DNA from: Bacilli bacterium
GTDB lineage: Bacteria > Bacillota_I > Bacilli_A > ML615J-28 > CAG-698
Direction: 5' to 3'
DNA: 56,335 nt
NCBI GenBank assembly: GCA_050177775.1
Contig: JBFXGS010000001.1
Location: 1 to 56,335, forward strand
The position numbers were made by a program, and so were the translations under genes. Of the stretch, positions 15,396 through 41,011 are shown piece by piece. Each line of letters starts with the position of its first letter. Position 1 is the first letter of the stretch. Below the pieces are notes generated by a model, which made no database searches, had not been told where the DNA came from, and saw nothing but the letters and a program-made list of their open reading frames with translations.

Positions 15396-15416
15396 GTTAG
15401 GCACTCACGGTTTTTT
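15390..15416 (+). terminator. Intrinsic terminator after the DJ-1 gene
   Basis: CTGTGAG / CTCACGG stem with one G-U pair, followed by TTTTTT. Confidence 0.7.
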
Positions 15417-15512
15417 CATTTTATAAAAATAAAATGTTCTTGTTAATTAGTGCTTATTATGATAAGATTAAACTACATTAATAATATGAACTTAAGAAAA
15501 GTGGTGATATCA

Positions 15513-21025: not shown

Positions 21026-22492
21026 TTAATTTTCAATCGTTATTTTTATTTCGAAAGCACGATTCCAAGGGAAACAAGCGTTATAATTTAATGGGAACAA
21101 AGGGTCCGATAAAGCATGAAGATTTGTCTGCAACAATTGAATTAATTCTTTACTTGGTTTAAAGTCAAAGATATTGAGCAAGTTGGAATGCAAATACTGA
21201 TGAATTTTTGGTCTGACGATATCTTGGTAAAAGCAATCATCAATAATCCGTTCGAGTAAAAATTGATGACATAGTTCGTGGTTCGTAAAGTGTTTATCAC
21301 AAGTAATTAAAGCGGTTGCTAAAAGGCTACCAGTGGCATTTGATGCGGTATTCCACCCGCTGAACCCCTTCAATTTTAAGAAATCAATTTGTTTTAACAA
21401 TTGATAGCAAGCCCCGTTGGGAGCATTAATATCAAGTAAAAAAACAGGAATGTTATCTTTTAAGATGATATTTAATTTGTCAATAAACGCCAGAGTATCG
21501 GGATCAAAAGATATTTCGAGCGGTTTTTCTCGATCGCACACTTCCATTTTCTGCGAGTTGTTGCTTTGGAAAACAGCAAGAACAAAGGATGCGGAAGCAA
21601 AATCATCGGTTCTTTTCATGCTAAGAATGGACGTCATTTTTTGCAGGTTTTCGATATACGGGCGATCTTCAAACGGTAAGGGGTTTTTTAATAATTCTTC
21701 ATTGGGATGTAAAAGGAAATAAGTTAAATCTTGTTTTCTTATCTCGCGAATGATTTTGGCAAGTATAAAGCAGCTGGCTTCATCGGTTCCATTATAAAGC
21801 CAAGCTTTAGTCGCTAATTGACCTTCTTTTATTTTTGCTTCTAAAAGATCGTGTTCCAATGTTTGTAAACCATTGGGCATGGAGTCTTCTTGTAGGAGCA
21901 GCAAGAAATCAATTTTGTTTTGTTTTAATAAATCAAGGATGATTTTATTGACCTCATGTTTTTTAATCCGGGCAATTTCGTATGTTTTAAGAATATCAAT
22001 TGGTATTTTAGAACTAATTTCTTGAAACTTTTCATAATCAGAAGGGTTTTTATATCTGAGAAATTGTCCTTTATACCGACTAAATTCATTTATTAATTTC
22101 CAATATTGGGTTGTTTTCTCATCAAAAGTTGATATTGAAGTCCGAAGAACGGTATCAAAAGCGTAAATCTTTAATTTTGGATTAAGCGTTTTTAAACTTT
22201 TTAAAAACTTTATTTTATAATCAAGTTCTTCGACCGAATAATTGGCCTTTCGGCTTTGAATTAAACCACCGCTAATAAGACTGTCAATTGGACAAATCAA
22301 ATAATCTAAATGGTTTACTTCATTTTTAAGAAAGTTTTGAATAGCGGTGAAATCAAGTTTTGAGTGCAGAGTTCCAAGCAAGTTTTTTTCCATCGTTATT
22401 AGGTTGATGTTGGCCATTTTTGCAAGAGCAATGACCCAATCATAATTGCAAGGACGACTATCTAGCGGAATTAATCCAACATTTGTTTTCAT
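21026..22492 (-). CDS. DUF4127 family protein, paralogue 1 (divergent copy)
   Basis: 488 aa with no signal peptide. Shares IPLDSRPCNY, DSLISGGLIQSR, QEDS, SGWNTASNATGS, LLERIIDD and FPWNRAFEI with the two paralogues at 36063 and 39500. Confidence 0.65.
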   Translation of the reverse strand: MKTNVGLIPLDSRPCNYDWVIALAKMANINLITMEKNLLGTLHSKLDFTAIQNFLKNEVNHLDYLICPIDSLISGGLIQSRKANYSVEELDYKIKFLKSLKTLNPKLKIYAFDTVLRTSISTFDEKTTQYWKLINEFSRYKGQFLRYKNPSDYEKFQEISSKIPIDILKTYEIARIKKHEVNKIILDLLKQNKIDFLLLLQEDSMPNGLQTLEHDLLEAKIKEGQLATKAWLYNGTDEASCFILAKIIREIRKQDLTYFLLHPNEELLKNPLPFEDRPYIENLQKMTSILSMKRTDDFASASFVLAVFQSNNSQKMEVCDREKPLEISFDPDTLAFIDKLNIILKDNIPVFLLDINAPNGACYQLLKQIDFLKLKGFSGWNTASNATGSLLATALITCDKHFTNHELCHQFLLERIIDDCFYQDIVRPKIHQYLHSNLLNIFDFKPSKELIQLLQTNLHALSDPLFPLNYNACFPWNRAFEIKITIEN

Positions 22493-27774: not shown

Positions 27775-28737
27775 ATGTCACTTACTGTTTTAGCAATTCC
27801 AACTTATGATAGTCGGGCTTTCGATGTCCGCCGTTTTATTCATCCACCCATTTTTGATGGCATTATCGACCAAGAAAAAAAGCCGCCGCAACCACCCGCT
27901 TGCTTTTTAGGAGCATGGTATCGCAAGGTGTTTTCCTCGTTTGATTCTTGGTTGGGAATTGAGGGCGTGATTGAACTTGGTGAATTTACTCCCGATGAAG
28001 CGCGCTTTAATCTTGACGGTAAAGGGCGATACATGGATGTCCCAAGCATTTATATGGGGGGAAAAAGTGCATTCGAGAGTGATGCCGGACTGGGTTTAGG
28101 ACCAACATATTTAACAGGTGATTTTTCGGCGGAGTTGTCAGGCTCCAGTCCCAAAATGGCTTACCGCCCGTTTTGGCGTTTTATCTATCAAGATGCAATG
28201 GAAATATCTGGAAATGTAAAACGTCGCGAGATTAATTCATGGAATGTCTCGGATCCAAGAAGTGTTATCTATAACTACTTTCCCGGCGATGTTTTAAGAA
28301 TGAGCGTCTATAGTCCGATTAAGGATTATTTACAATTGCATATTGAAGTAATTAAAACAACAACCATTCCCAAATATGTGAACATTAGAAAACAATACCA
28401 TTTGGTAAATGATCGTCCCGATGATTTTTTTAGTCCCATCTTTTTATCAAAAGGACATGGGTACAAAGATGCAGAATTTAAAAGAGTCAATGCCATCGAT
28501 CAATTTGGCAATGAAGGATTTCACGCGAAACCGACGAAAGCCGAAGTATCAAAAGCGACTTGGCATGAAACCTATTTATATCGGATGCTAGATGGGGAAA
28601 TAAAAAGAGTTCCTTTTTCAAAAGCAAGACAAACAAGTATGATTTGTCCCAATGTGGAAGCGGTTAATGTTGAACTAATCAACCCAGATATGGGAAGCGA
28701 GGCCATAACCATTCAACCAGGTAAAATTAAGGGGTAA
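27775..28737 (+). CDS. Orphan 320-aa cytoplasmic protein, paralogue A (family unassigned)
   Basis: No signal peptide or TM helix. Roughly 60 percent identical by eye to the 35090-36052 product. GGGGGA RBS. Confidence 0.6.
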   Translation: MSLTVLAIPTYDSRAFDVRRFIHPPIFDGIIDQEKKPPQPPACFLGAWYRKVFSSFDSWLGIEGVIELGEFTPDEARFNLDGKGRYMDVPSIYMGGKSAFESDAGLGLGPTYLTGDFSAELSGSSPKMAYRPFWRFIYQDAMEISGNVKRREINSWNVSDPRSVIYNYFPGDVLRMSVYSPIKDYLQLHIEVIKTTTIPKYVNIRKQYHLVNDRPDDFFSPIFLSKGHGYKDAEFKRVNAIDQFGNEGFHAKPTKAEVSKATWHETYLYRMLDGEIKRVPFSKARQTSMICPNVEAVNVELINPDMGSEAITIQPGKIKG

Positions 28738-28751: not shown

Positions 28752-30455
28752 ATGAATTTTAATGAGAAAACTTATATCTGTAAAGATGTTTATACGATTG
28801 ACGGCATCTTAAACTTTATCGGAAAAATCCCCGTTGATATCAACGGGAGAACAGTCACTTATAAAATGTATGCCAATTATCATGAACTGTTAGACAAGAA
28901 TGTTTTTGAGATAAAAAGCCAAGGAATTCGTTTATATGTTCACTTTGATGAAAAAATAAAACCAGATGGTTATTCGATAAACATTACCACAGAAAATAAA
29001 ATAATCATTAAAGTCGCCAATAACCGCGGGATTCGTTATGCTTTTAAAATGCTCAATGACCTTGTGAAAAAAACAAAACAAGGTTTTACGCTTCCAATTA
29101 TCTTAATTGAAGATGAACCTTCTTTTTCGGTTAGAGGGATTGTGGAAGGATATTATGGGGAACCATGGACTTTAGATGAACATCTTGATATGGCTGATTT
29201 TATGGATCAATATCGGTTGAATGCGTTTATGTACGCTCCCAAAACAGATCCATATCATCGCGATAAATGGTTTGAATTATATCCGGATGATCTTTTTTCC
29301 ACGCTTTGTTCAGTGAAAGACAAATTAGAGAGTAAGGATATTGATTTCTATTATTGCATTTCACCAGGCCATGCCAAGAAACCTGAAGACGGATTTAAAT
29401 ATGTCGGTGATGAAGATTTCGAAAGACTGTTTAATAAATTAAGACAAGTTATCGACATTGGCGTCAATCACTTCGGTTTGTTCTTAGATGATATTGATTA
29501 TCAACTGAGCGGAGAAAACCAACGAATTTTTAAACGGCCGGGAATTGCTCATGCCCATATTTGCAATAAAGTATATGATTTCTTAAAGGAAAACGTCCTT
29601 GACCCAACTCTGGTTATGTGTCCAACCGAATATCATCAAATTGGTCAGACCGAATACCGCCATGATTTAAAAGAATATTTAGATGATGAAATTGTAGTGT
29701 TTTGGACAGGAGATCGGGTTTGTGCTGAAGCAATTACAGAAAATGAGGCTAAAGAAACATTAGAAGCCTATGAAAAACCTATTTTTATTTGGGACAATTT
29801 TCCTGTTAGTGATTTTACATATGGAGTTAGAGAGTTTATTGCTCCGATTAAGAATCGATCCGCTAACTTAGGAGCCTATGCCGAAGGGTTCTTTATTAAT
29901 CCAAGCCTTCATTATCATATTTCAAAAATGGGGATGATTACGATGGCTCATTATGCTTGGAATACTTCCCACTATGATCCGGAAAAATCTTTTGAAATAG
30001 CGCTTAATAGTGTAAGTCGAGAATTTGCAAATTTAGGTCAAGCTTATTTTAATTATAATTATCCAAATGTTCTCTCCCATGGAAACCTAGAAATGGAAAA
30101 ACAAATGGTTGAAAACCATGATTATCCCGCCATTATAAATTATATGCAAGATATGTCTAAGAGTGCAAAAGCTTTATTGACCCTTAAAGAACCTATAATT
30201 GATGAATTGAAACCATGGTTACAAAGAGCTGTGGAAGAAGAAATAATGGTGAAAAAAATAATAGAAGGAAAAATTGTTAAACAAGAGTTGTTGGCCTTTT
30301 TTGAAAACATCAAGTTTTCAGGCGGAAAAATCCTTGATTATTTAATCGCTGATTTAAAACTATTTAGTGATGAAGAATATAGCACGCTCATTGCCAAAAG
30401 AAGAGGTGGAGAATGGTACCGCGTTTTTGAATATAAACGTTGGTCCAACCATTAA
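28752..30455 (+). CDS. GH84 family beta-N-acetylglucosaminidase (O-GlcNAcase/NagJ-like), cytoplasmic
   Basis: 567 aa. Motifs RGIVEGYYGEPWT, YAPKTDPYHRDKW, FGLFLDDIDY (catalytic DD), CPTEYH, FWTGDRV and IWDNFPVSDF. No signal peptide. Confidence 0.85.
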   Translation: MNFNEKTYICKDVYTIDGILNFIGKIPVDINGRTVTYKMYANYHELLDKNVFEIKSQGIRLYVHFDEKIKPDGYSINITTENKIIIKVANNRGIRYAFKMLNDLVKKTKQGFTLPIILIEDEPSFSVRGIVEGYYGEPWTLDEHLDMADFMDQYRLNAFMYAPKTDPYHRDKWFELYPDDLFSTLCSVKDKLESKDIDFYYCISPGHAKKPEDGFKYVGDEDFERLFNKLRQVIDIGVNHFGLFLDDIDYQLSGENQRIFKRPGIAHAHICNKVYDFLKENVLDPTLVMCPTEYHQIGQTEYRHDLKEYLDDEIVVFWTGDRVCAEAITENEAKETLEAYEKPIFIWDNFPVSDFTYGVREFIAPIKNRSANLGAYAEGFFINPSLHYHISKMGMITMAHYAWNTSHYDPEKSFEIALNSVSREFANLGQAYFNYNYPNVLSHGNLEMEKQMVENHDYPAIINYMQDMSKSAKALLTLKEPIIDELKPWLQRAVEEEIMVKKIIEGKIVKQELLAFFENIKFSGGKILDYLIADLKLFSDEEYSTLIAKRRGGEWYRVFEYKRWSNH

Positions 30456-30464
30456 GGAAGCCTT

Positions 30465-31133
30465 ATGATGATGGAAAAAATAAAAAATCAGTTAATTGTT
30501 TCTTGTCAAGCTAAAGATAATGAACCATTAAAAGATCCAATGATTATGGCAAAGATGGCAGCATCGGCACTACTTGGGGGAGCAAAAGGCATTAGGGCAG
30601 CGGGCGTTGAAGATATTAAAGCCATTAAAGCATTTAACGATACGCTTGTTATCGGTTTAATAAAACGAAATTACCCTGATTCTGAAGTTTACATTACACC
30701 AACCAAAGTTGAAGTTTTAAAGTTGGTTGAAAGTGGTTGTGAAATAATTGCTCTCGATGGAACAAATCGTCACCGCCCCAATCAAGAAACTTTGGTAAGT
30801 TTAATCGTATTAATCCATGCCAACAATCGTTTAGCCATGGCAGATATTTCAACATTTGAAGAAGCTTTAATGGCGCAACAAGCAGGTGCTGATTGTATTT
30901 CCACAACTTTATCGGGATACACAAGTTATTCAAAGCAACAAGCGGGGCCTGATTTAAAATTACTTAGTAAATGTGTTGCAAAATTACAAATACCCGTGAT
31001 TGCGGAAGGACGGATTCGTAACCCTCAAGATTTGAAACGCGTTTTAAAGAAAAAACCTTTTGCAGTTGTCATCGGAACAGCGATTACGAGACCTTCAGAA
31101 ATCACCAAAACATTTGTGGAGTGCTTCAAATGA
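30465..31133 (+). CDS. nanE: N-acetylmannosamine-6-phosphate 2-epimerase
   Basis: 222 aa with the NanE pattern (LIVSCQA..EPL, IALDGT, ADIST, TTLSGYT, IAEGRI, VVIGTAITRP). Confidence 0.88.
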   Translation: MMMEKIKNQLIVSCQAKDNEPLKDPMIMAKMAASALLGGAKGIRAAGVEDIKAIKAFNDTLVIGLIKRNYPDSEVYITPTKVEVLKLVESGCEIIALDGTNRHRPNQETLVSLIVLIHANNRLAMADISTFEEALMAQQAGADCISTTLSGYTSYSKQQAGPDLKLLSKCVAKLQIPVIAEGRIRNPQDLKRVLKKKPFAVVIGTAITRPSEITKTFVECFK

Positions 31134-32775: not shown

Positions 32776-32798
32776 AGTGCCATTAAATGGCACTTTTT
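32776..32798 (+). terminator. Intrinsic terminator ending the first operon
   Basis: AGTGCCAT-TAA-ATGGCACT hairpin followed by TTTT. Confidence 0.75.
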
Positions 32799-32802
32799 CA
32801 AT

Positions 32803-32836
32803 TTGTATATACAAGTTATTTTTTAAATGGTATAAT
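32803..32836 (+). promoter_or_regulatory. Promoter of the second operon with a perfect 12-bp palindrome operator candidate
   Basis: TTGTATATACAA (32803-32814) is a perfect palindrome overlapping the -35 region. TATAAT lies at 32831-32836. Confidence 0.6.
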
Positions 32837-32855
32837 TAAAAAAAGGAAGAGAAAT

Positions 32856-35090
32856 ATGAGGAAAATTTTTATGGCTTTTTTGTTAGCAACGCTTTTATCC
32901 GGGGTTAGTATTAATGCCGAAACCACTGCCATTGTTGATGATTTTTTAAACGGGAAGGATGTGGTCCGCTATGAAAACTATTTGGTTTATTATAGTTTCA
33001 ATTCGACTTTAAAATCACCTGCAAACCAATGGGGATATGAAATTGCGGTTAGCAGTAATCACTTTGTGATTGATTGTGACACAAACGCAACCATGGAAAC
33101 AGGAGGATATATCATATCCGGGCATGGGACGAAAAAAACGACGTTGCAAAATGTCAAAGTTGGTGATCAAGTTAGTATCAATTGGGAAACTAAACAAATC
33201 GTGATTACGCGCGATAGTTTGAAAAGCCCGCAATTTTTAGCTCATCGTTTTAAAACAACCTCGGAAAACTATTACAATCAAGCAATCGAGGGCGGATATG
33301 ACTTTAACAGAACGCTTGTTGAACATATGCTTAATTTAAATGATAATGATTTACTGCAGATTGATGCCATCGTTGAAAAAGAAAGTCCCACAAGCAATGA
33401 AATTGATTTGGTTAAGATACTGGCTGATGGCATTGATGCTAGGATGCTATCCATCAAGTTTTTAACTTCTTTCTCTTCAACTACGGAAATTAGAGCTTTA
33501 TGGCATCGACCCAATGCGGCAGGCATTAAAGAGAACAACTTAGAAAATTTAAAGGCGTTTGTGCAAGAAGTAAAGGACCTTGGGTTTAATACCATTTTTG
33601 TGGAGACGCTTTGGAATGGATATGTCAGTTATCGGTCGGATATCATTGCTACGCATCCGCAAGTTGCTAATTTTACCTATGGTGAAGAATATAAAAACGA
33701 TTATATTGCGGCTTTAATTGGTGAAAGTCAAAAATTAGGCATTGATGTTCATGCTTGGTGCCACACCTTTAATGCGGGGAATGCAACCTACAAAGCCACT
33801 TCCATTAAAGATGAATGGTTATTGGAAGATTATCAAGGACTTACTTTACATCCAAATAGTTATGGAGGCAGTTATTATTTAGATCCATCTAATCCGGAGG
33901 TACTGACTTACTTGACAAGCGTTTTTTCGGAAATGGTTGAAAAATACGATTTTGCGGGAATTCAATTAGATTACATACGTTATTATGATAATAATTATTT
34001 ACAAACGCCGATTCGTGATAGTGGTTACGGATTACTCCCGGAAACACAATTTAAAACAGAATATTCATTAACCGGTGATGTTCGAACCCTCATTAAACAA
34101 AACACCTATTTGGAATTATGGAATGAATGGCGCCAAAACAATGTAACCAATGCTGTTCGAACTTTTTCTTCGGCTTTAAGAAGGCTTAATCCGCAGATCA
34201 TCATATCCGCGGATGTTGTTTCGAGTATCAATTATGCGAAAAGTACATATATGCAAGACTGGAAAACATGGGTTGAAAAAGGATACATTGATTTATTATG
34301 CCCAATGATTTATACCGGAAGTGCCGAAACTATTGAAAAAGACTCGTTAGCGATAATGAATCAAATAAAAAACCTTTCGTTTTTAGCTTCAGGGATTGCT
34401 CCAATTTATTATGGGCATTCGTTAGAAATCAATCATGATGAATTCGTCGCAACAAAAAGCGGCGATGGTTTAGCCTTTTTTGCAAGCCAAAACATCGTTG
34501 GATTAAGTGATGTTACTCAATCAATTAAAACAGGGGTTTTTAGAAACACGGCAGTATCTCCGCTTCGAGAAACCAAATTGGTTATCACAGAAGCTTTGTT
34601 GAACTTGAAAAGCTATGTTGAAAAGGCGATGGCGAATGAACCGCAACAATTAATGTTTTTAAACCATGTCGAAGAAATGATGACAATGAAGTGTGATAAC
34701 CCGGCTGATTATCAAGCCCTTATGGAAAAAATGATTTTTGTAAGAACGATAACTCCGTACATCTCTTCTTCTTCAATGCGAGAAATATTCTCACAAGAAT
34801 TAACTCAATTAATTCATATTCTTGATGTGAAAATAAGTCGAGAAATGATTGCTTATGGTTTTTATAACCCTGATGATGAAGAAAGGCCCAATCCGGATCA
34901 ATTTGATTACCCAATCGATAATCCAGAACCCGAACCTGAACCGAAACCCGAGCCGGAACCAGAACCGGAACCCGAGCCTGAACCAGAGCCGGATGAAGAA
35001 AAAGGTTGTTTTAAAGTGTTTTCGTTTCCTTCTGTTTTGCTTCTTGGATTAATTTTTATCTTTATTCGAAAAAAAGAAAGAGGTTATTAA
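32856..35090 (+). CDS. Secreted, C-terminally anchored GHL10 (DUF187/YngK-like) glycoside-hydrolase-like protein
   Basis: Signal peptide MRKIFMAFLLATLLSGVSINA. GHL10-like core RALWHRPNAAGIKENNLENLKAFVQEVKDLGFNTIFVETLWNGYVSY ... GIQLDYIRY. C-terminal PE repeat, KGC, TM helix and RKKERGY tail. Start trimmed to ATG 32856. Confidence 0.75.
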   Translation: MRKIFMAFLLATLLSGVSINAETTAIVDDFLNGKDVVRYENYLVYYSFNSTLKSPANQWGYEIAVSSNHFVIDCDTNATMETGGYIISGHGTKKTTLQNVKVGDQVSINWETKQIVITRDSLKSPQFLAHRFKTTSENYYNQAIEGGYDFNRTLVEHMLNLNDNDLLQIDAIVEKESPTSNEIDLVKILADGIDARMLSIKFLTSFSSTTEIRALWHRPNAAGIKENNLENLKAFVQEVKDLGFNTIFVETLWNGYVSYRSDIIATHPQVANFTYGEEYKNDYIAALIGESQKLGIDVHAWCHTFNAGNATYKATSIKDEWLLEDYQGLTLHPNSYGGSYYLDPSNPEVLTYLTSVFSEMVEKYDFAGIQLDYIRYYDNNYLQTPIRDSGYGLLPETQFKTEYSLTGDVRTLIKQNTYLELWNEWRQNNVTNAVRTFSSALRRLNPQIIISADVVSSINYAKSTYMQDWKTWVEKGYIDLLCPMIYTGSAETIEKDSLAIMNQIKNLSFLASGIAPIYYGHSLEINHDEFVATKSGDGLAFFASQNIVGLSDVTQSIKTGVFRNTAVSPLRETKLVITEALLNLKSYVEKAMANEPQQLMFLNHVEEMMTMKCDNPADYQALMEKMIFVRTITPYISSSSMREIFSQELTQLIHILDVKISREMIAYGFYNPDDEERPNPDQFDYPIDNPEPEPEPKPEPEPEPEPEPEPEPDEEKGCFKVFSFPSVLLLGLIFIFIRKKERGY
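34924..34992 (+). repeat. Imperfect GAACCN hexanucleotide repeat encoding a (Pro-Glu)n linker
   Basis: Encodes PEPEPEPKPEPEPEPEPEPEPEP. A similar tract lies at 39367-39420. Confidence 0.85.
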
Positions 35091-36052
35091 TGAGCTTAAC
35101 AATAAAAGTAATACCGACTTTAGACAGTCAATATGTCGATAGTCGCAAGTTTCAAAACGCCAAAATTTATTATGGAAGTATCGACAATGAAATAAAAGCT
35201 CCCATTTCACCAAAGTGTTTTTTAGGAGCTTGGTACCGAAAAGTTTTTTCATCCTTTGACTATTGGCTTGGAATAGAAGGAGTTATAAAACTGGGAGAAT
35301 TTATTCCTGACAAAGCCCGTTTTAATCTTGATGGAAAAGGCCGATTTATGGATAATCCTTCAATATATATGGGTGGAAAGAGCCAAAAAGAAAGCGATGC
35401 TGGCCTAAACTTAAATCTTTCTTATCTTTCGTTTGATACCAAAGATGATTTGCAATTATCTTCGCCTAAAGTGGCTTACCGTCCTTTTTGGCGTTACATT
35501 TACAATATGGCAACGGATGAAAGCGGAAATGTGGATCGTCATGAAGTTAATTCATGGAACGTTCATAATCCCCGTCATTTGGGAAATTATTATTTTCCGG
35601 GTGATGTAATTAAAATGAGCGTATTTAGTCCGTTGAGGGACTATTTACAATTGCGAATTGATGTCATCGAACCGACCAACAATCCTAAATATGTGAAAAT
35701 ACGCAATAATTACAATTTGGAAAACAATTTACCAACATCATTTTTAAGTCCGCTGTTCTTTTCCAAAGGACATGGTTACGAAAAAGCAGAATTTAAAAGA
35801 GTGAACTCCATTGACCAATATGGCAACGAAGGATTTGTTGCCCAAAATACTAATGCTGAAGTTACGGAGGCTCTGTGGCAAGAAGTGTATTTATATCGGG
35901 AGATTAATGGGGAGATTTGTAAAATACCTTTTTTACAAAATCGCCAAACATCCATGATTTGTCCAAATACAGATGCGATAACCGTAAGGAATCATCCTTT
36001 TGACCCAACTGGGGAAACCATACAAATTCATCCCGGGAAAATTAATCTTTAG
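35090..36052 (+). CDS. Orphan 320-aa cytoplasmic protein, paralogue B
   Basis: Same length and colinear blocks as 27775-28737 (CFLGAWYRKVFSSFD, WLGIEGVI, ARFNLDGKGR, SIYMGGKS, AYRPFWR, FPGDV..MSV, SKGHGY..AEFKRVN, RQTSMICPN). TAATG overlap with the upstream stop. Confidence 0.6.
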   Translation: MSLTIKVIPTLDSQYVDSRKFQNAKIYYGSIDNEIKAPISPKCFLGAWYRKVFSSFDYWLGIEGVIKLGEFIPDKARFNLDGKGRFMDNPSIYMGGKSQKESDAGLNLNLSYLSFDTKDDLQLSSPKVAYRPFWRYIYNMATDESGNVDRHEVNSWNVHNPRHLGNYYFPGDVIKMSVFSPLRDYLQLRIDVIEPTNNPKYVKIRNNYNLENNLPTSFLSPLFFSKGHGYEKAEFKRVNSIDQYGNEGFVAQNTNAEVTEALWQEVYLYREINGEICKIPFLQNRQTSMICPNTDAITVRNHPFDPTGETIQIHPGKINL

Positions 36053-36062: not shown

Positions 36063-37565
36063 ATGAAAAAAATTTTATATATTCCACTTGATGAACGCCC
36101 TTGTAATTATGATTTTCCGAAAAGTATTTTTACAAGTTCCTCATACTCCGTCATTGTTCCACCCATTAGTATCATGGGTGATAAAAAAAATCCGGCTGAC
36201 CATGAAGCTTTAGAAACCTTTTTACTTGAAGAATCAAAGGAAGCGGATGGTTTAGTTATTTCTCTTGACACATTAATTTATGGTGGAATTGTGCCTTCGA
36301 GGCTCCATTATTTGGAAGCCTCTGTTTTGAAAGAAAGGTTATTGTTTTTAAAGAAAATCAAGCTAATTCACCCCCATTTACCCGTTTTTGCTTTTCAACT
36401 TATTATGCGTTGTCCTCAAAACAATTCGAGCGATGAAGAACCGGAATACTATAAACATGCAGGTCGGAATATTTATCTGCAAGGTTATTTTCAAAACAAA
36501 CAACAACTTGGCCTTCTCAGCGTTGATGAAGAAAAAATTTGGAAGACCATCACCATTGAGGATGCTTATTTAAATGATTTTCTAAGTCGAAGAGCTTTGA
36601 ATAAGCAAATTAACATTTTTGCGCTTGATTTGTTAGAACAAGGGACAATTGATTTTTTGGTTGTTCCTCAAGATGATGCCAGTGAATTTGGTTACACGGC
36701 AATGGATCAAGTTGATATTAGATCGGTAATTCGCCAAAAGCAACTAATGCTTAAAGCTTATATGTATCCTGGGGCCGATGAAGTTGGATGTATTTTAATG
36801 AGTCGGATGATTAACCATTTAGAAAATAAAAAGCCGGCCGTGTTTGTGAAATACCCATCCCCGACCACCCCGATGGTAATTCCTTGTTTAGAAGATCGCT
36901 ATGTCGATGTAACCATCAAATACCATATTGCTTGTGCCGGAGGAATTACGGTTCCTTCGCTGAGTGATGCCGATATTGTTTTGCTTCCCTTTTTAGGGGC
37001 AACCAAAATGATACCACACCCGAATAATGAAGCCAGTTTAGATGTTGATGTTATGTGCAATTTTGTGGAAATGATGGAGTTTGCGGAATATGCCATTAAA
37101 AAAGGCTATCCGGTTGCTATTGCTGATTTAGTTTATTTAAATGGTGGTTCTTTAGATATCTTAAATTTTCTTGAAAGCAAAGGATTAACCATGAGGGTTG
37201 CCGCTTATGCGGGATGGAATACCTCAAGTAATGCTTTAGGAACAGCCATTGCTCAAGCTATGCAGTTTTGGCATCAAGGATCTACCAAACTTCACCAAAC
37301 ATTTCTCATCAAGAGGTATGTCGAAGACGTGGGGTATTGTGGAGTAGTGCGAGAGAATGTTACCAAACAACTGGCAAAATATGGTATGGATTACTTTAAT
37401 GTGAAAGAAAAAAGCGGGCTTGCCGCCGATCTTGTCAAACAAGAACTAAACTTGTTCATTGAAGAATATCTTCCAAGCATTTCTAACCGATTCGCTTTGG
37501 AGGATGTTAATCTGCCATGGCGTCGAATGTTTGAAGTTGATTTCCAAGTCGTTCTAAAGGATTAA
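36063..37565 (+). CDS. DUF4127 family protein, paralogue 2
   Basis: 500 aa from MKKILYIPLDERPCNY. AGGAGAAAAGG RBS. The track ORF starts upstream inside the previous gene. Confidence 0.65.
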   Translation: MKKILYIPLDERPCNYDFPKSIFTSSSYSVIVPPISIMGDKKNPADHEALETFLLEESKEADGLVISLDTLIYGGIVPSRLHYLEASVLKERLLFLKKIKLIHPHLPVFAFQLIMRCPQNNSSDEEPEYYKHAGRNIYLQGYFQNKQQLGLLSVDEEKIWKTITIEDAYLNDFLSRRALNKQINIFALDLLEQGTIDFLVVPQDDASEFGYTAMDQVDIRSVIRQKQLMLKAYMYPGADEVGCILMSRMINHLENKKPAVFVKYPSPTTPMVIPCLEDRYVDVTIKYHIACAGGITVPSLSDADIVLLPFLGATKMIPHPNNEASLDVDVMCNFVEMMEFAEYAIKKGYPVAIADLVYLNGGSLDILNFLESKGLTMRVAAYAGWNTSSNALGTAIAQAMQFWHQGSTKLHQTFLIKRYVEDVGYCGVVRENVTKQLAKYGMDYFNVKEKSGLAADLVKQELNLFIEEYLPSISNRFALEDVNLPWRRMFEVDFQVVLKD

Positions 37566-37566: not shown

Positions 37567-39507
37567 ATGAAAAAGTTAACGTTTATTCTTTGCTTTATTT
37601 TTGTTGTTTTGTTCTTTGTTTTTTTTAGAGTTAACACTTTTGCTCACTCGATGAGTGTTGAGAAAAATGACACGATTAAAAGTGGGACAGTTATACCAGG
37701 AATAACTTACGAAAGCTTTTCGGGAATGACAATAAATGATGCCCAAACCACCAGCAATCAAAGAATTAGTTGGGTGAAAAAATCCGCAAGTGCTCATGCG
37801 AAAATAGTTTCCTGGAGTAAACTAAAAGAAAACGGCATTGAAGGCGCGAACCTATTAAATCTGGCAAGTGATTTTGAGAGTAAAAATCCAGGATGGCGAG
37901 TGCTTGCCGGAATTAATGGGGACTATTACGACCCGACGACTAAAACGCCCGTGAATGCCCTTGTACAACAAGGTGATGTTGTAAAAGGAACAAACTTTAC
38001 ATTATCGAGATATTTTTCAATTGGCTTTAACGATGATAGCACTGGCTATGTAACATCGAAAACCAATGTTTTAGAAACAAAGTACGCTTTAACGATTTAT
38101 GATGAATCAAGGACTCGGGTTATTCTGGAAGTGGAACTTCAAGGATTAAACACGTATCCTAACAGCAAACAGACAAGTGTTTATTATAATAGTCAATATC
38201 CTTATCAAATTCCTAATGCCCGTTATTTTCGTGTAAATGATTTAGATTATGCCATCAATTACGGGTCTTATTTATTTAAAGGAAAAGTCAATGAAGAAGT
38301 AAATAATACCGAAACCCATTTAGGACAATTAGTGATCGCATCTTTAGATGAACGTGTTCAATATTTACTTGAAAAAAATCCATATATCCGGGTTCAAAAG
38401 CATTTAAAAGATGTCAATAACGGTTATGACAATATTATTGGAGTCGGAAGTCAACCTCTAAAAGATGGGACAATCTTAGAATTTTCCGAAATAAATGACC
38501 AAAATCTTGATTTCGCAAAACTTCGTGCACCGCGTTCTTCAATTGGCTTTACCCATGACGGCAGTTTTGTGATGGCTACCATGGATGGAAGGCAGTCGTT
38601 AATGGCCGGAGTTGACTTACGAGAAGAAGCCATGGTTATGGCATCTTTGGGGTGCCATCAAGCCTTTAATTTAGATGGTGGGGGATCAACCCAGTTAATT
38701 GTTCGAGAAAATGATCAATTGGTGATGTTAAACTCGCCTTCCGAAATCTATCGGAATAATGCCAATGGGGTTTTAATAGTGGAACCCGATGTTGATATTG
38801 AGGTTGACATTTCCCATTTATCTTTTTCATCGCTTGACTTACAATACTCTTTGGTGCCGCAAACCGGGGTGAATATTATAAGCCATTCTTTATATGCTAA
38901 TAATGTTCCGATAACAACGAGCCCAGAAACGATTACCATTGATTCTTTAATTTATTCGGGAATTAATTATTTGTCTTTGGTTGTGAAATACGAAAAACAA
39001 GGATTTATTTATGAACGATGTTTGTGGGTTGAACGAATAAATCTTGCTAATTATGGACTTGTTGAACCTATTGTTAAGGAAAAGCCCCATGATTTTACGG
39101 TTGTATTTGAAAAAGATGAAACTATCAAGGGCTTTACCGCGGTTATTAATTTTGATGATCCCGATAACACAATCACAAAACTTTATTTAGCATATGAAGG
39201 TAATGAAGAAATCGCCTTAAAAAGAATCAACGGGTATGAAGTCGATTTTTATAATGTTGAAAATAATTCATCTTTTTCTTTTTCGATTATTTATTATTAT
39301 CGAATTAACACGATAAATGCGGTATCGGAAACTTATGAAACTTTGTTTCCTTATGTTTATCAAGCGGAAACAGAGCCCGAGCCTGAACCTGAACCTGAAC
39401 CAAAACCAGAACCGGAAACTAAAGGTTGTTTATCTTGGGAAACACTATTACCTATTTCGCTTTTGATGTTAGGTTTTGGATGGTTTAAGAGGAGGAAACA
39501 TGAATAG
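37567..39507 (+). CDS. Secreted, C-terminally anchored phosphodiester glycosidase (NAGPA/DUF2233 domain) protein
   Basis: Signal peptide. Motifs GINGDYYD and RSSIGFTHDGSFVMATMDGRQ...GVDLREEAMVMASLGCHQAFNLDGGGSTQLIV, typical of the NAGPA domain. Also a C-terminal beta-rich region, PE repeat, KGC, TM helix and KRRKHE tail. Confidence 0.8.
   Translation: MKKLTFILCFIFVVLFFVFFRVNTFAHSMSVEKNDTIKSGTVIPGITYESFSGMTINDAQTTSNQRISWVKKSASAHAKIVSWSKLKENGIEGANLLNLASDFESKNPGWRVLAGINGDYYDPTTKTPVNALVQQGDVVKGTNFTLSRYFSIGFNDDSTGYVTSKTNVLETKYALTIYDESRTRVILEVELQGLNTYPNSKQTSVYYNSQYPYQIPNARYFRVNDLDYAINYGSYLFKGKVNEEVNNTETHLGQLVIASLDERVQYLLEKNPYIRVQKHLKDVNNGYDNIIGVGSQPLKDGTILEFSEINDQNLDFAKLRAPRSSIGFTHDGSFVMATMDGRQSLMAGVDLREEAMVMASLGCHQAFNLDGGGSTQLIVRENDQLVMLNSPSEIYRNNANGVLIVEPDVDIEVDISHLSFSSLDLQYSLVPQTGVNIISHSLYANNVPITTSPETITIDSLIYSGINYLSLVVKYEKQGFIYERCLWVERINLANYGLVEPIVKEKPHDFTVVFEKDETIKGFTAVINFDDPDNTITKLYLAYEGNEEIALKRINGYEVDFYNVENNSSFSFSIIYYYRINTINAVSETYETLFPYVYQAETEPEPEPEPEPKPEPETKGCLSWETLLPISLLMLGFGWFKRRKHE
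39367..39420 (+). repeat. Imperfect GAACCN hexanucleotide repeat encoding a (Pro-Glu)n linker
   Basis: Encodes ETEPEPEPEPEPKPEPET, immediately before AAAGGTTGT (KGC). Confidence 0.85.
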
Positions 39508-41011
39508 AATCATTTATGTTCCCCTTGATGAACGTCCCTGTAATTATCGATTTCCTTTTCAAATATTTAATCAAAAAAACACGGAAATAATTACTTGTCC
39601 AGAACATTTGATGGGTTATAAAAAGCGACCGGCCCAAATCAACCAACTTAATGAATGGTTAATGATCAATACTAAGCATGCTTATGGTTTGGTTGTTGCC
39701 CTAGATACACTTATTTATGGAGGAATTGTACCCTCACGACTCCATAATTTGCCTTTAGATGTGTTAATAAGTCGATTAACTATTTTAAGAAGTTTGAAAA
39801 AACAAAATCCTAATTTGATTATATATGGATTTTCCTTAATTATGCGATGCCCCGAGTATAATTCTGCCGATGAAGAACCGGAATACTTTCAAAACCACGG
39901 AAAAAACATTCACCTTTTGGGTTATTTGTCCCACATGAAAGAATTAAACATTCTTAGTAAATCCGATCAAGAAAAACTTGATAATATCCAAATCCCCAAG
40001 GAATACATCGATGATTTTTCACATCGTCGTTATGTTAACCAACAAATTAATATCGCTGCATTAGAGCTTGTGAAAGAAGAAATCATTACCTTTTTCACAA
40101 TTCCTCAAGATGATTCTTCAAAGTATGGTTGGACGGCCAAAGATCAAATCAAGATTAGAGAGGTTATAAAAAAACATAAACTGTTTAAGAAAGTTTTTAT
40201 GTATCCTGGTGCGGATGAAGCTGGTTGTGTTTTACTCAGTCGAATGGTTTGTCTTAACAATCATCTTCAACCGAAAGTATATATTAAATACCCCGGTCCC
40301 ACTTGTTCGAAAATAATCCCCTCCATCGAAGATCGCTATTTGGATACGATGGTAAAATACCACATTATTGCTTGTGGCGGGATAGTAGTTGATGCTTTAA
40401 AGGAATGTGATGCGGTTTTATTGATCAATGCTCCTGCAGATTACATGCGCTCCTCATTTAATAAAGAAGAACCCGGCCGGGGACTGGAAGTTCAGAGAAA
40501 CCTTGTTGAAGCCATCGAGTTTATTGAATACGTGGGCCAAAAACAAAAAGCCATTATTATTGGCGATATTACTTATGGAAATGGCAGTGATTTAGAAATT
40601 TATCATTATTTATCTTTAAAGAAAATGCTTTTTAAACTGGCGGGTTTTGGAGGATGGAACACAGCTTCCAACAGTATCGGGCAAGCCATCGCCATGGGTT
40701 TTTCGTGCTTGCTAAACGGGTTTACCAAACAACATTTAGCTTTTTTAATCAGCCGCTATGTTGAAGATATCGGTTATTGTGGTTATGTTCGTCAAACAAT
40801 TATGAAGGACTTTTTGCCTAGACATCCTCAGTTAAACTATTTCGATGTAAAAAGCAAAGCCGGAATCGTCGCAACAGAAGTTAAGGATCAATTAAAGTTG
40901 TTTGTACAAACCAAAATGCCTGATTTATGGCCCCACATTATTATTAAGAAAGTTGAATTACCTTGGAAACGCATGTACGAAATCGATTTAGAGGTTGAAT
41001 ATCGACCCTAA
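39500..41011 (+). CDS. DUF4127 family protein, paralogue 3
   Basis: 503 aa from MNRIIYVPLDERPCNY. AGGAGGA RBS. 8-nt overlap with the upstream gene. Roughly 45-50 percent identical by eye to paralogue 2. Confidence 0.65.
   Translation: MNRIIYVPLDERPCNYRFPFQIFNQKNTEIITCPEHLMGYKKRPAQINQLNEWLMINTKHAYGLVVALDTLIYGGIVPSRLHNLPLDVLISRLTILRSLKKQNPNLIIYGFSLIMRCPEYNSADEEPEYFQNHGKNIHLLGYLSHMKELNILSKSDQEKLDNIQIPKEYIDDFSHRRYVNQQINIAALELVKEEIITFFTIPQDDSSKYGWTAKDQIKIREVIKKHKLFKKVFMYPGADEAGCVLLSRMVCLNNHLQPKVYIKYPGPTCSKIIPSIEDRYLDTMVKYHIIACGGIVVDALKECDAVLLINAPADYMRSSFNKEEPGRGLEVQRNLVEAIEFIEYVGQKQKAIIIGDITYGNGSDLEIYHYLSLKKMLFKLAGFGGWNTASNSIGQAIAMGFSCLLNGFTKQHLAFLISRYVEDIGYCGYVRQTIMKDFLPRHPQLNYFDVKSKAGIVATEVKDQLKLFVQTKMPDLWPHIIIKKVELPWKRMYEIDLEVEYRP

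What the first reader, a model, noticed from the sequence alone, without database searches (positions are those of the whole stretch)
37567..39507. Surface-anchored bacterial homologue of the lysosomal uncovering enzyme domain (NAGPA)
The product has a signal peptide, a clear NAGPA/DUF2233 core (GINGDYYD ... AFNLDGGGSTQLIV), about 230 aa of beta-rich sequence of unknown function, a PE linker and a C-terminal anchor. In eukaryotes this domain removes GlcNAc from GlcNAc-1-P-6-Man. Bacterial substrates are essentially undefined. Here it sits between two DUF4127 genes and downstream of a GHL10 enzyme. That gives an unusually explicit genomic context for a substrate guess.
Basis: partly seen in the sequence, partly recalled or inferred. 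Interest (0 to 1): 0.6.

Follow-up and report, generated by a model that had tools for sequence, protein, structure and literature searches.

The report
Surface NAGPA enzyme of wall-less bacterium
This gene encodes a membrane-anchored, outward-facing relative of the animal lysosomal "uncovering enzyme" in a small wall-less bacterium, and it most likely helps the cell harvest N-acetyl-amino sugars from the phosphate-linked wall polymers of other bacteria; no bacterial member of this family has a known substrate.

Summary
ORF 37567-39507 (+) encodes 646 aa: a signal peptide, an NAGPA/PF09992 domain (98.4 bits, cut-off 25), about 190 aa of beta structure, a (Pro-Glu)n linker and a Lys-Gly-Cys/helix/KRRKHE tail.

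- **Fold:** the AlphaFold2 model (pLDDT 87) matches bacterial DUF2233 proteins and vertebrate NAGPA. The beta region is two Ig/FN3-like domains. The catalytic domain has an insertion of about 100 aa.
- **Active site:** DGGGS is invariant.
- **Context:** the gene is translationally coupled between two DUF4127 genes in a HexNAc-catabolic island. Its most conserved neighbours are a 320-aa protein, a GntR repressor, a GH84 or GH20 hexosaminidase and an ABC importer, not DUF4127.
- **Lineage:** the genome has five paralogues, and 92 of 101 genomes of its order have the family. The genus lacks PBPs and PTS but has NagA, NagB and MurQ, with MupG, AnmK and NamZ in the sister genome read. It therefore eats other bacteria's cell walls.

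Best reading (0.5): an extracellular alpha-HexNAc-1-phosphodiester glycosidase for wall-polymer scavenging. It is a new member of a known family, and the activity is untested. The scan noted the same operon type before on other DNA (e1-1534710, e1-2794261).

The parts
37567..37650 (+). Signal peptide (residues 1-28, MKK...NTFAHS). The cleavage site after AHS is inferred by eye.
   Evidence: Sequence. AF2 helix 2-19, then pLDDT <50 at 21-26. N-termini of the same type occur in 40 homologues.
37651..38787 (+). NAGPA / phosphodiester-glycosidase catalytic region (residues 29-407), long form.
   Evidence: PF09992 98.4 bits over 273-404. NGDYY aligns to 3OHG residues 94-105. Foldseek top hits are 5H3K, 3OHG, 6OZD and vertebrate NAGPA 6PKG/6PKI/6PKY/6PKU/6U11, prob 1.00, TM(target) 0.54-0.65 for 3OHG and the vertebrate chains.
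38002..38316 (+). Beta-rich insertion of about 100 aa (residues ~146-250) between the NGDYY strand and the conserved C-terminal half of the NAGPA fold.
   Evidence: NGDYY to the second conserved block spans about 180 aa here and about 65 aa in 3OHG. AF2 strands 150-245. No Pfam family matches. The same stretch aligns without large gaps in an SLH-fused Firmicutes homologue, P0078.
38497..38502 (+). D311-Q312 of the INDQN loop. By HMM alignment they occupy the positions of human E226/T227, which bind the GlcNAc N-acetyl group.
   Evidence: Nearly invariant (>=90%) in A1. Alignment to guinea-pig NAGPA, with residue roles from PMC13474241. Not confirmed by superposition.
38674..38688 (+). D370-G-G-G-S374, the family's invariant catalytic and phosphate-binding loop.
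   Evidence: Invariant in 43 of 43 aligned homologues and in all five paralogues. Corresponds to human D286-S290, where D286A, G288A, G289A and S290A abolish activity (PMC13474241).
38752..38754 (+). R396, an invariant Arg 26 residues after the catalytic Asp. It is a candidate equivalent of the human phosphate-binding R316.
   Evidence: Invariant in A1. Aligns to the Arg of PRKV in 3OHG. Equivalence to R316 is inferred from spacing only.
38788..39363 (+). Two tandem Ig/FN3-like beta-sandwich domains (residues ~408-497 and ~505-599), read as a stalk.
   Evidence: AF2 pLDDT is mostly 85-95, all beta. Foldseek hits to FN3/Ig tandems: titin, CD45, fibronectin, CbhA FN3 modules. No Pfam match.
39367..39420 (+). 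Acidic Pro-Glu linker (residues 601-618).
   Evidence: Sequence. pLDDT <50.
39421..39507 (+). C-terminal anchor: KGC, hydrophobic helix (622-640), KRRKHE tail and stop codon.
   Evidence: Sequence. AF2 helix 628-645. The same (PE)n-KGC-helix-basic tail ends 6 of 1110 long ORFs of the genome, including the GHL10 neighbour. Every orthologue examined keeps a TM helix plus basic tail.
39500..41011 (+). Downstream DUF4127 gene. Its likely ATG (39500) overlaps the NAGPA stop codon, and the AGGAGG of the NAGPA KRRK codons serves as its ribosome-binding site.
   Evidence: DNA read. PF13552 482 bits.
36063..37565 (+). Upstream DUF4127 gene. Its stop codon lies 1 nt before the NAGPA ATG.
35090..36052 (+). 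320-aa cytoplasmic protein of unknown family (paralogue at 27775-28737). Its family is the most widely conserved neighbour of NAGPA orthologues.
   Evidence: A homologue lies directly upstream of the NAGPA orthologue in the Anaeroplasma, Acholeplasma and Paracholeplasma loci and nearby in Haloplasmataceae and Acholeplasmatales loci. No Pfam or PDB sequence match.
32787..35090 (+). Exported GHL10 enzyme with the same C-terminal anchor.
   Evidence: PF02638 118 bits. The nearest solved structure is Cwp19, 5OQ2, E 8e-10. C-terminus.
28752..31133 (+). Cytoplasmic GH84 beta-N-acetylglucosaminidase and NanE (ManNAc-6-P 2-epimerase).
   Evidence: PF07555 285 bits and PF04131 200 bits. GH84 has no signal peptide.

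Best explanation
The gene encodes a type-I membrane protein with five parts: a cleaved signal peptide, an outward-facing long-form NAGPA (phosphodiester glycosidase) catalytic domain, a two-domain Ig/FN3-like stalk, a Pro-Glu spacer, and one C-terminal helix with a basic cytoplasmic tail. This architecture is shown.

By homology to the vertebrate uncovering enzyme, I infer the following chemistry. The enzyme binds an alpha-linked N-acetylhexosamine in a pocket built around the invariant DGGGS loop. It cuts the C1-O bond between that sugar and a phosphate, releasing the HexNAc-ended piece and leaving a phosphomonoester on the other partner.

The organism has no wall of its own and no detectable sugar-1-phosphate transferases. 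The substrates are therefore most likely phosphodiester-bridged wall polymers of other bacteria. These would be the GlcNAc-1-P-6-MurNAc linkage of teichoic acids, secondary wall polysaccharides and capsules, or sugar-1-phosphate repeat polymers.

The enzyme would work next to the surface GHL10 enzyme. Products would enter through the adjacent ABC importers and be finished in the cytoplasm by GH84, NanE, the 320-aa protein, DUF4127, NagA and NagB. All of this pathway placement is inferred from context.
For: **Family and fold**
- PF09992 scores 98.4 bits against a cut-off of 25.
- An A1 profile hits 3OHG at E 4e-23 and vertebrate NAGPA at about E 1e-14.
- The AF2 model has pLDDT 87.1, and its best PDB matches are all NAGPA-fold proteins.

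**Active site**
- D370GGGS374, R323, D340-G-R342 and R396 are invariant in 43 homologues. D311/Q312 are >=90% conserved.
- In human NAGPA the DGGGS loop binds GlcNAc and phosphate, and mutations in it abolish activity (PMC13474241).

**Topology**
- Signal peptide, TM helix and basic tail are present and are conserved in all 12 orthologues examined.

**Operon and island**
- The gene has a 1-nt gap to the upstream gene and overlaps the downstream one.
- The island holds GH84, NanE, a GNAT-GntR regulator, GHL10 and two ABC importers.
- Distant orthologues keep GntR, the 320-aa protein, GH20C or GH84, and the SBP and permeases.

**Substrate must be exogenous**
- No PBP in 0 of 6 genus genomes.
- No FtsW/RodA, LCP, MraY/TagO-type GT4, Bac_transf or Stealth in the genome.

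**Wall scavenging**
- MurQ is in 4-5 of 6, NagA in 6 of 6 and NagB in 5 of 6 genus genomes.
- A NamZ / GH3-MupG / kinase / AnmK / MurQ operon is present in the sister genome G045. G029's MurQ contig has ORFs of the same sizes in the same order, not scanned.
- This genome carries a surface NamZ lipoprotein.
- The GHL10 neighbour resembles the lytic transglycosylase Cwp19 (PMC6016235).
- MupG is present although no PTS is found. It needs a source of 6-phospho-MurNAc glycosides, and an uncovering reaction at wall-polymer linkage sites would supply one.

**Expansion**
- The genome has five paralogues.
- 92 of 101 genomes of the order have the family, usually at 3-7 matching places each.
Against: - No bacterial member of the family has a demonstrated substrate. 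I could not read the one paper that studied one.
- The position of the human phosphate-binding T260 (S344 here) is not conserved in this subfamily.
- Equivalence of R396 to R316 and of D311/Q312 to E226/T227 rests on sequence alignment only.
- The vertebrate enzyme takes only a terminal, unsubstituted GlcNAc. In wall-polymer linkage units the GlcNAc carries ManNAc (from established knowledge of teichoic-acid structure).
- No phosphatase or sugar-phosphate transporter is recognisable in the window.
- NanE is near this orthologue only in this genus and a few others. Five genomes with strict orthologues have no NanE.
- MurQ and MupG are not in this genome's own 84%-complete assembly.
- The BadF-type kinase in the sister-genome operon could explain MupG without NAGPA.
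- GHL10 also includes a reported starch-active enzyme (PMC9967864).
Confidence: 0.5

Rival explanations
1. It is an extracellular hydrolase for a phosphate-free HexNAc glycan, for example host or environmental glycans, PNAG-type exopolysaccharide or chito-oligomers. It would use the NAGPA fold as an ordinary alpha-N-acetylhexosaminidase or endo-enzyme.
For: - The conserved partners are generic HexNAc enzymes: GH84 or GH20C, an Ig-like surface protein with a faint GH85_C signal, and a DUF5696 protein.
- The T260-equivalent position varies.
- The window holds no phosphatase.
- The sugar-loop residues differ between the five paralogues.
Against: - The glycine-rich DGGGS loop, whose backbone holds the phosphate in the human enzyme, is strictly invariant, together with three arginines.
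- No NAGPA-fold enzyme is known to act on a phosphate-free glycoside.
Confidence: 0.25
2. It matures or remodels the bacterium's own surface glycoconjugates, as the animal enzyme does and as the old COG name 'exopolysaccharide biosynthesis protein' implies.
For: - JGI names several homologues 'exopolysaccharide biosynthesis protein'.
- The window encodes BacA/UppP and IspH, so polyprenyl-phosphate carriers are made and recycled.
- The membrane-tethered, stalked architecture parallels human NAGPA.
Against: - The operon partners are catabolic: a repressor of the NagR/HutC type, importers, hexosaminidases and NanE.
- No MraY/WecA-type, Bac_transf, LCP or Stealth sugar-1-P transferase was found. 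The genome is 84% complete, and the Stealth search had no positive control.
Confidence: 0.1
3. It acts mainly as a weapon rather than a feeding enzyme. It would strip teichoic acids or S-layer-anchoring polysaccharides from living Gram-positive neighbours to sensitise or lyse them.
For: - Rumen relatives are described as bacteriolytic (PMC8941964).
- An Anaeroplasma bactoclasticum MAG carries an orthologue.
- The family is expanded to several secreted copies per genome.
- Other NAGPA domains occur in predicted conflict systems of Bacillota (bioRxiv 10.1101/2025.01.14.632903).
Against: - This copy is tethered to the producer's membrane by a short stalk, which limits its reach.
- It is co-transcribed with importers and cytoplasmic catabolic enzymes.
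- No immunity or delivery genes are seen.
Confidence: 0.1
4. It is a catalytically inactive surface lectin or adhesin built on the NAGPA fold.
For: The Ig-like stalk and surface display are typical of adhesins.
Against: All residues known to be essential in the human enzyme's DGGGS loop are invariant across 43 homologues down to 26% identity.
Confidence: 0.03

Closest known systems
[quoted passage not shown]
   Same: - Same fold (Foldseek prob 1.00).
- Same invariant DGGGS loop.
- Same overall design as a type-I membrane protein: N-terminal catalytic core, stalk, one TM helix and a short cytoplasmic tail.
   Different: - Only 13-14% identity.
- The stalk is two Ig/FN3-like domains instead of EGF-like repeats.
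- An extra insertion of about 100 aa sits in the catalytic domain.
- No furin-type propeptide was looked for or seen.
- The T260 position is not conserved, and an invariant extra Arg (R342) is present.
- The partner GlcNAc-1-phosphotransferase (Stealth) was not found.
- The context is catabolic rather than biosynthetic.
BACOVA_00430, the DUF2233 protein of Bacteroides ovatus (PDB 3OHG)
   Same: It is the best sequence match among solved structures (profile E 4e-23). It shares the NGDYY, PR(T/S), DGR, DGGGS and NxP..R motifs.
   Different: It is 285 aa, with no insertion, stalk or TM anchor. Its substrate is also unknown.
SLH-domain-fused NAGPA proteins of walled Firmicutes (for example P0078, 976 aa, a cluster of 4846 sequences)
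   Same: Same long-form catalytic domain including the insertion. It aligns over residues 109-459 at 27% identity.
   Different: - They attach through SLH domains to the producer's own wall polysaccharide. This protein uses a TM helix in a wall-less cell.
- The INDQN sugar loop is deleted in them.
- Their likely role is on the producer's own wall.
Slr0280 (5H3K) and BPSS2145 (6OZD), structural-genomics proteins with an NAGPA-like domain
   Same: They are among the top Foldseek hits (E 5e-14 and 4e-11).
   Different: They are multidomain proteins of unknown function. Low TM-scores (0.37-0.40) show different overall architectures.
LCP (LytR-CpsA-Psr) ligases. They make the GlcNAc-1-P-6-MurNAc bond that this enzyme is proposed to cut (from established knowledge).
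   Same: They would share the same bond and the same wall polymers.
   Different: The fold is unrelated and the direction is opposite. The link is purely hypothetical here, and the genome has no LCP gene.
Cellulosimicrobium GH92 'uncapping' mannosidase, which removes Man from Man-1-P-6-Man (from my own knowledge, not checked here)
   Same: It is a bacterial extracellular glycosidase that cleaves a sugar-1-phosphodiester at C1-O and leaves a 6-phosphate.
   Different: It belongs to a different fold family (GH92) and removes mannose rather than HexNAc.

Membership tests
NAGPA / DUF2233 phosphodiester glycosidase family (Pfam PF09992) | Profile HMM score above the curated gathering threshold | tested here: met
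   98.4 bits against 25, E 6.8e-28. 91.8 bits in the six-frame genome search.
NAGPA / DUF2233 phosphodiester glycosidase family (Pfam PF09992) | Three-subdomain alpha/beta NAGPA fold | tested here: met
   The AF2 model has pLDDT 87.1. The 15 best PDB matches are all NAGPA-fold proteins, with TM(target) 0.54-0.65 for 3OHG and the vertebrate chains.
NAGPA / DUF2233 phosphodiester glycosidase family (Pfam PF09992) | Invariant DGGGS loop with the catalytic Asp (human D286-S290) | tested here: met
   D370-S374 is invariant in 43 of 43 homologues and in 5 of 5 paralogues. Roles are taken from PMC13474241.
NAGPA / DUF2233 phosphodiester glycosidase family (Pfam PF09992) | Phosphate-binding arginine (human R316) | tested here: inconclusive
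   An invariant R396 lies 26 residues after the Asp, against 30 in human. It aligns to an Arg of 3OHG. No structural superposition was possible.
NAGPA / DUF2233 phosphodiester glycosidase family (Pfam PF09992) | Phosphate-binding Thr (human T260) | tested here: not met
   The aligned position (S344) varies among S, T, A, N, G, D, E and P in the subfamily. An adjacent invariant R342, absent from vertebrates, may substitute for it; this is inference. The residue is not family-defining in bacteria.
NAGPA / DUF2233 phosphodiester glycosidase family (Pfam PF09992) | Residues that read the GlcNAc N-acetyl group (human E226/T227) | tested here: inconclusive
   The HMM alignment puts D311/Q312 (>=90% conserved) at these positions. 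The loop differs in the four paralogues.
NAGPA / DUF2233 phosphodiester glycosidase family (Pfam PF09992) | Hydrolysis of the C1-O bond of a HexNAc-1-phosphodiester | not testable with these tools
   This needs enzyme assays.
Orthologue of the animal uncovering enzyme in a Man-6-P tagging pathway | Partner GlcNAc-1-phosphotransferase (Stealth family) in the same genome | tested here: not met
   PF11380 was not found in the genome. The search rang in none of the 14 control genomes, so its power is low, and the genome is 84% complete.
Orthologue of the animal uncovering enzyme in a Man-6-P tagging pathway | EGF-like stalk and furin-cleaved propeptide | tested here: not met
   The stalk is two Ig/FN3-like domains. 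No EGF Pfam hit was found.
Cys-bearing C-terminal sorting signals (MYXO-CTERM-like), considered for the anchor | Recurrent short tripartite C-terminus with a conserved Cys on several exported proteins of one genome | tested here: met
   6 of 1110 ORFs of >=150 aa end in [KS]GC-hydrophobic-basic, four of them after a (PE)n linker. About half of the orthologues lack the Cys.
Cys-bearing C-terminal sorting signals (MYXO-CTERM-like), considered for the anchor | A dedicated sorting protease or transferase, and cleavage of the tail | not tested
   Not examined here.

The most novel reading that the evidence does not exclude
The expanded NAGPA family of wall-less Acholeplasma-like bacteria would be the missing 'reverse-LCP' enzymes. 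They would cut the GlcNAc-1-phosphate-6-MurNAc bond that ties teichoic acids, secondary wall polysaccharides and capsules to peptidoglycan. This would detach the polymers for consumption. It would also leave MurNAc-6-phosphate on the glycan strands, which, once cleaved and imported, would feed the PTS-independent MupG/MurQ route seen in this genus. That would give the first bacterial substrate for the family and a bacterial 'uncovering' reaction chemically parallel to Man-6-P uncovering.
Probability: 0.2. Interest if true: 0.8.

Novelty: new member of a known kind. Interest (0 to 1): 0.5.

Why it matters
The NAGPA/DUF2233 family is very widespread in bacteria. In this scan's control set, 8 of 14 model genomes have it. 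Yet neither the papers I could search nor the 2026 human NAGPA paper name a substrate for any bacterial member.

This copy offers an unusually clean test case:
- The cell has no wall and no detectable sugar-1-phosphate transferases, so the substrate must come from outside.
- The gene sits in a tight catabolic operon.
- The lineage demonstrably carries peptidoglycan-sugar catabolism.
- A cultured relative, Acholeplasma granularum ATCC 19168, has an orthologue.

If the enzyme cuts wall-polymer phosphodiester linkages, three things would follow. It would define the family's bacterial function. It would explain how small wall-less bacteria live on bacterial necromass in digesters and guts. It would also provide a reagent for releasing intact teichoic acids and capsules from cell walls under mild conditions.

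Tried and rejected
- **DUF4127 structure.** The AF2 model from 11 sequences is confident (pLDDT 87.8). Foldseek against the PDB gave only weak xylose-isomerase hits (E about 1e-3, TM about 0.2). It gives no functional lead, so the flanking genes do not sharpen the substrate guess.
- **Sequence searches of the neighbours against the PDB.** The 320-aa protein and DUF4127 gave nothing.
- **Pfam at E<=10 on three pieces of the protein.** The N-terminal subdomain, the insertion and the stalk gave no family.
- **NCBIfam.** It gave no model for the protein.
- **Literature.** 'DUF4127' gave zero papers. Searches for bacterial NAGPA substrates gave only reviews or domain-architecture mentions. Das et al. 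2013 (JBC 288:16789) is not held under its DOI or PMC id.
- **Sialic-acid origin for NanE.** Rejected: no NanA/DHDPS-family gene is in the genome.
- **NanE as a universal partner.** Rejected: true NanE is in only 13 of 101 genomes of the order, and it is missing from five genomes that have strict orthologues.
- **Lipoprotein reading of the N-terminus.** Rejected: Cys9 is preceded by Leu, so there is no lipobox.
- **'Prevotella' and 'Moraniibacteriota' hosts.** Rejected as binning labels: those contigs are 94% and 98% identical to Anaeroplasma and Paracholeplasma contigs.
- **Active-site superposition.** Not possible, because model coordinates are not exposed.
Full report
**1. Observation**

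An ATG-started ORF of 646 codons lies at exactly 37567-39507 on the + strand. Both quoted motifs are there: GINGDYYD at residues 115-122 and AFNLDGGGSTQLIV at 366-379.

Pfam PF09992 (NAGPA, phosphodiester glycosidase) scores 98.4 bits against a gathering cut-off of 25, over residues 273-404.

- The N-terminus, MKKLTFILCFIFVVLFFVFFRVNTFAHS, reads as an SPase-I signal peptide. Cys9 follows Leu, so it is not a lipobox.
- The C-terminus reads EPEPEPEPEPKPEPE, then T-KGC, then a hydrophobic stretch of 19 residues, then KRRKHE.
- The flanking genes are DUF4127 (476 and 482 bits), and a GHL10 protein lies two genes upstream.

The only correction is that the beta-rich region is about 190 residues, not 230.

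**2. Anatomy**

I aligned 43 full-length homologues of 26-69% identity (A1) and used the alignment for an AlphaFold2 model. The model has mean pLDDT 87.1 and pTM 0.74.

The 15 best Foldseek matches in the PDB are all NAGPA-fold proteins:
- Slr0280 (5H3K)
- BACOVA_00430 (3OHG)
- BPSS2145 (6OZD)
- zebrafish, frog and guinea-pig NAGPA

After these come tandem FN3/Ig proteins, which match residues about 408-599. The 'unknown' C-terminal region is therefore a two-domain Ig/FN3-like stalk.

The catalytic region (29-407) is about 100 residues longer than in 3OHG or the vertebrate enzymes. NGDYY and the second conserved block are about 180 residues apart here and about 65 apart in 3OHG. The extra stretch (about 146-250) is all beta in the model and matches no Pfam family. 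It is not private to this lineage. An SLH-fused Firmicutes homologue, P0078 (a cluster of 4846 sequences), aligns straight through it.

**3. Active site**

The 2026 human NAGPA paper (PMC13474241) reports the following:
- 286-DGGGS-290 is invariant and holds both GlcNAc and phosphate.
- D286A, G288A, G289A and S290A abolish activity.
- E226/T227 read the N-acetyl group.
- T260 and R316 hold the phosphate.

In A1, D370GGGS374 is invariant, as are R323, D340-G-R342, N368 and R396. D311/Q312 are >=90% conserved.

The profile alignment to guinea-pig NAGPA puts D311/Q312 at the E226/T227 positions and S344 at T260. That S344 column is variable. R396 lies 26 residues after the Asp, against 30 in human.

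The catalytic loop is therefore intact. Sugar and phosphate contacts are plausible but rest on alignment only, because I had no access to model coordinates.

**4. Topology and parallel with the human enzyme**

All 12 orthologues I read end in a hydrophobic helix plus a Lys/Arg tail. They come from Acholeplasma, Anaeroplasma, Paracholeplasma, Izemoplasmatales, Haloplasmataceae and unnamed Bacilli.

The design is an N-terminal catalytic core, a stalk, one TM helix and a short cytoplasmic tail. It matches that of human NAGPA, where membrane tethering and the stalk raise activity in cells, although the stalk domains are unrelated.

In this genome the tail belongs to a recurrent (PE)n-KGC-helix-basic module found on 6 of 1110 long ORFs, including the GHL10 neighbour. 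About half of the orthologues lack the Cys. I therefore treat the tail as an anchor and leave open whether it is also a sorting signal, as suggested by an earlier scan note (e1-3329313).

**5. Operon and island**

The upstream DUF4127 gene stops 1 nt before the NAGPA ATG. The downstream DUF4127 gene's ATG (39500) overlaps the NAGPA stop codon, and its Shine-Dalgarno sequence is the AGGAGG of the KRRK codons.

The island (21-56 kb) holds the following genes:
- a third DUF4127 gene
- two ABC sugar importers with solute-binding proteins and DUF624 proteins
- cytoplasmic GH84 and NanE
- a GNAT-GNAT-GntR/UTRA regulator
- exported GHL10
- two copies of a 320-aa cytoplasmic protein
- a 1793-aa lipoprotein
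- an NHL/TPR protein, a Yip1 protein and a DUF5696 protein

GH84 and the DUF4127 proteins have no signal peptide.

**6. What is conserved around orthologues**

Three MAGs are fully syntenic (L001-L003).

In the more distant Acholeplasma, Anaeroplasma and Paracholeplasma loci, the recurring neighbours are, in order:
- a GntR regulator (not seen in the Anaeroplasma-type loci L005-L007)
- the 320-aa protein
- NAGPA
- a hexosaminidase or surface protein
- DUF624
- the 973-aa SBP
- permeases

In Acholeplasma granularum the hexosaminidase is GH20C, and a ROK kinase sits upstream. DUF4127 recurs only in the closer relatives and in a Haloplasmataceae locus.

True NanE occurs in 13 of 101 genomes of the order. 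It lies about 7 kb from the orthologue in four genomes of this genus and 21 kb away in one other. Five genomes with strict orthologues have no NanE.

The family-wide theme is N-acetylhexosamine uptake and breakdown.

**7. The organism**

The genome (G000) is 1.39 Mb and 84% complete.
- It lacks PBP transpeptidases, FtsW/RodA, LCP ligases, MraY/TagO-type and Bac_transf phosphoglycosyl transferases, and Stealth proteins.
- PBPs are missing from all six genomes of the genus.
- Record titles of relatives name Tenericutes, Acholeplasma, Anaeroplasma and Izemoplasmatales.

It is therefore a wall-less Bacilli lineage, and endogenous HexNAc-1-phosphodiesters are unlikely.

Two contigs labelled Prevotella and Moraniibacteriota are 94% and 98% identical to Anaeroplasma and Paracholeplasma contigs. 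These are binning labels.

**8. Expansion**

G000 has five NAGPA genes, all of 620-660 aa with the same domain order. Three lie in tandem on C51, one on C75 and one in the window. Only the window copy has the linker and TM anchor. The four others end in a shared ...LY(N/E/Q) tail and differ in the sugar loop.

With the A1 profile, 92 of 101 genomes of the order have a match at E<=1e-20, usually at 3-7 places per 1-2 Mb genome. Matches are not strictly copy numbers.

**9. Evidence for wall scavenging**

An earlier scan note on another genome (e1-2794261) gave me the lead, so I tested MurNAc catabolism here.

Presence at genus level:

| Gene or system | Genomes with it (of 6) |
|---|---|
| MurQ above the equivalog cut-off | 4, plus 1 truncated copy |
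| NagA | 6 |
| NagB | 5 |
| HPr | 0 |
| PTS EIIC | 0 |

The MurQ operon of the sister genome G045 holds these genes. The MurQ contig of G029 has ORFs of the same sizes in the same order, which I did not scan.
- NamZ
- a GH3::MupG fusion
- a BadF-type kinase
- AnmK
- MurQ
- an alpha/beta hydrolase
- ETF alpha/beta
- an FAD-linked oxidase

G000's own assembly lacks that operon. It does encode a lipoprotein NamZ with a Big_2 domain (C54:6222-7778) and two GH3 genes.

The GHL10 neighbour's nearest solved relative is Cwp19 (5OQ2, E 8e-10). Cwp19 is a peptidoglycan lytic transglycosylase (PMC6016235), and AnmK uses exactly the anhydro-MurNAc that such enzymes make.

A wall-less, PTS-less genus that keeps MurQ, AnmK, NamZ and MupG must be eating other bacteria's walls. 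MupG needs 6-phospho-MurNAc glycosides. Without a PTS these could come from the operon's kinase, or from MurNAc-6-phosphate left on peptidoglycan after a C1-O cut at the polymer linkage site. I cannot tell which.

**10. Verdict on function**

Shown:
- family membership
- an intact catalytic loop
- extracellular, membrane-tethered topology
- operon coupling to HexNAc catabolism
- the wall-less state of the host
- a wall-scavenging gene set in the genus

Inferred:
- The enzyme cuts alpha-HexNAc-1-phosphodiesters of foreign wall polymers.

I put this inference at 0.5. The reasons for caution are these:
- No bacterial member has been assayed, as far as I could find.
- The T260 position is not conserved.
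- The vertebrate pocket accepts only unsubstituted terminal GlcNAc.
- No phosphatase or sugar-phosphate importer is recognisable.
- One GHL10 enzyme is reported to act on starch (PMC9967864).

Rival readings, with my confidence:
- a phosphate-free HexNAc glycan hydrolase (0.25)
- remodelling of the cell's own glycoconjugates, noting that BacA/UppP and IspH are in the window (0.1)
- an antibacterial role (0.1)
- a non-catalytic lectin (0.03)

**11. Comparison and novelty**

The protein is a genuine member of PF09992. NCBI already names close homologues 'phosphodiester glycosidase family protein'. It is therefore a new member of a known kind.

Its value lies in the testable setting:
- an exogenous substrate
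- a tight operon
- a lineage-wide expansion
- a cultured relative with an orthologue

The DUF4127 model gave no functional lead.

The scan has noted the same operon type and the same idea before on other DNA (e1-1534710, e1-2794261, e1-4175652). Those are unchecked notes, not evidence.

Noticed in passing
G000 contigs C51:111-6067 (+) and C75:1278-3146 (-), outside the window: Four more NAGPA paralogues (659, 649, 635 and 622 aa) have signal peptides and the same domain order. They have no PE linker or TM anchor. Three lie in tandem, and all end in a shared ...LY(N/E/Q) tail of unknown role.
   Followed up: partly
L088 (G045:C8) 5817-16654 (-) and L089 (G029:C26) 1179-12015 (+): Sister genomes of this wall-less, PTS-less genus appear to carry a full MurNAc operon. 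In L088 (Pfam-scanned) it runs NamZ, GH3::MupG fusion, BadF-type kinase, AnmK, MurQ, alpha/beta hydrolase, ETF alpha/beta and an FAD-linked oxidase (possibly for the D-lactate released by MurQ). L089 has ORFs of the same sizes in the same order but was not scanned. The GH3::MupG fusion looks unusual.
   Followed up: partly
G000 C54:6222-7778 (-): A lipoprotein (MKKFGLIIMMAFVIMTAGC...) combines a Big_2-like N-terminal part with a NamZ exo-beta-N-acetylmuramidase. It is 60% identical to the cytoplasmic NamZ of the sister genome. This is a surface-displayed NamZ in a wall-less cell.
   Followed up: partly
window 39488-39507: The AGGAGG inside the NAGPA KRRK tail codons doubles as the ribosome-binding site of the downstream DUF4127 gene. 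That gene's ATG (39500) overlaps the NAGPA stop codon.
   Followed up: yes
window 36063-37562, 39509-41008 and 21029-22492 (-): DUF4127 gives a confident AF2 model (pLDDT 87.8, pTM 0.89) with no convincing PDB analogue. The best match is xylose isomerase, E about 1e-3, TM about 0.2. Invariant residues include D10-x-R-P-C-N15, Q203-x-D205, E277-D-R279 and G384-W-N-T387.
   Followed up: partly
window 34924-35087 and 39367-39504; G000 C7:21241-23484, C8:7080-9275 (-), C15:242-2869, C28:9426-11918: Six exported proteins share a C-terminus of Lys/Ser-Gly-Cys, a hydrophobic helix and an Arg/Lys tail. Four of them have a (Pro-Glu)n linker before it. This may be a lineage-specific sorting or anchoring signal.
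   Followed up: partly
window 4034-4990 (-) and 7818-8672 (-): IspH (LytB) and BacA/UppP (undecaprenyl-diphosphatase) are present in a genome with no peptidoglycan synthesis genes. The cell therefore still recycles a polyprenyl-phosphate carrier for some surface glycoconjugate.
   Followed up: no
L005 and L011 (genome contigs records JAMPDF010000003.1 and JAVEQZ010000016.1): Contigs filed under 'Prevotella sp.' and 'Candidatus Moraniibacteriota' are 94% and 98% identical to Anaeroplasma bactoclasticum and Paracholeplasma contigs. These are probably binning or labelling errors.
   Followed up: yes
L015 2059-3651 and 11619-13196: In a Haloplasmataceae locus, the NAGPA, 320-aa and DUF4127 genes are joined by two PF12831 FAD-dependent oxidoreductases, a GH20C enzyme and an esterase. 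This hints at an oxidative step in the same pathway in that lineage.
   Followed up: no
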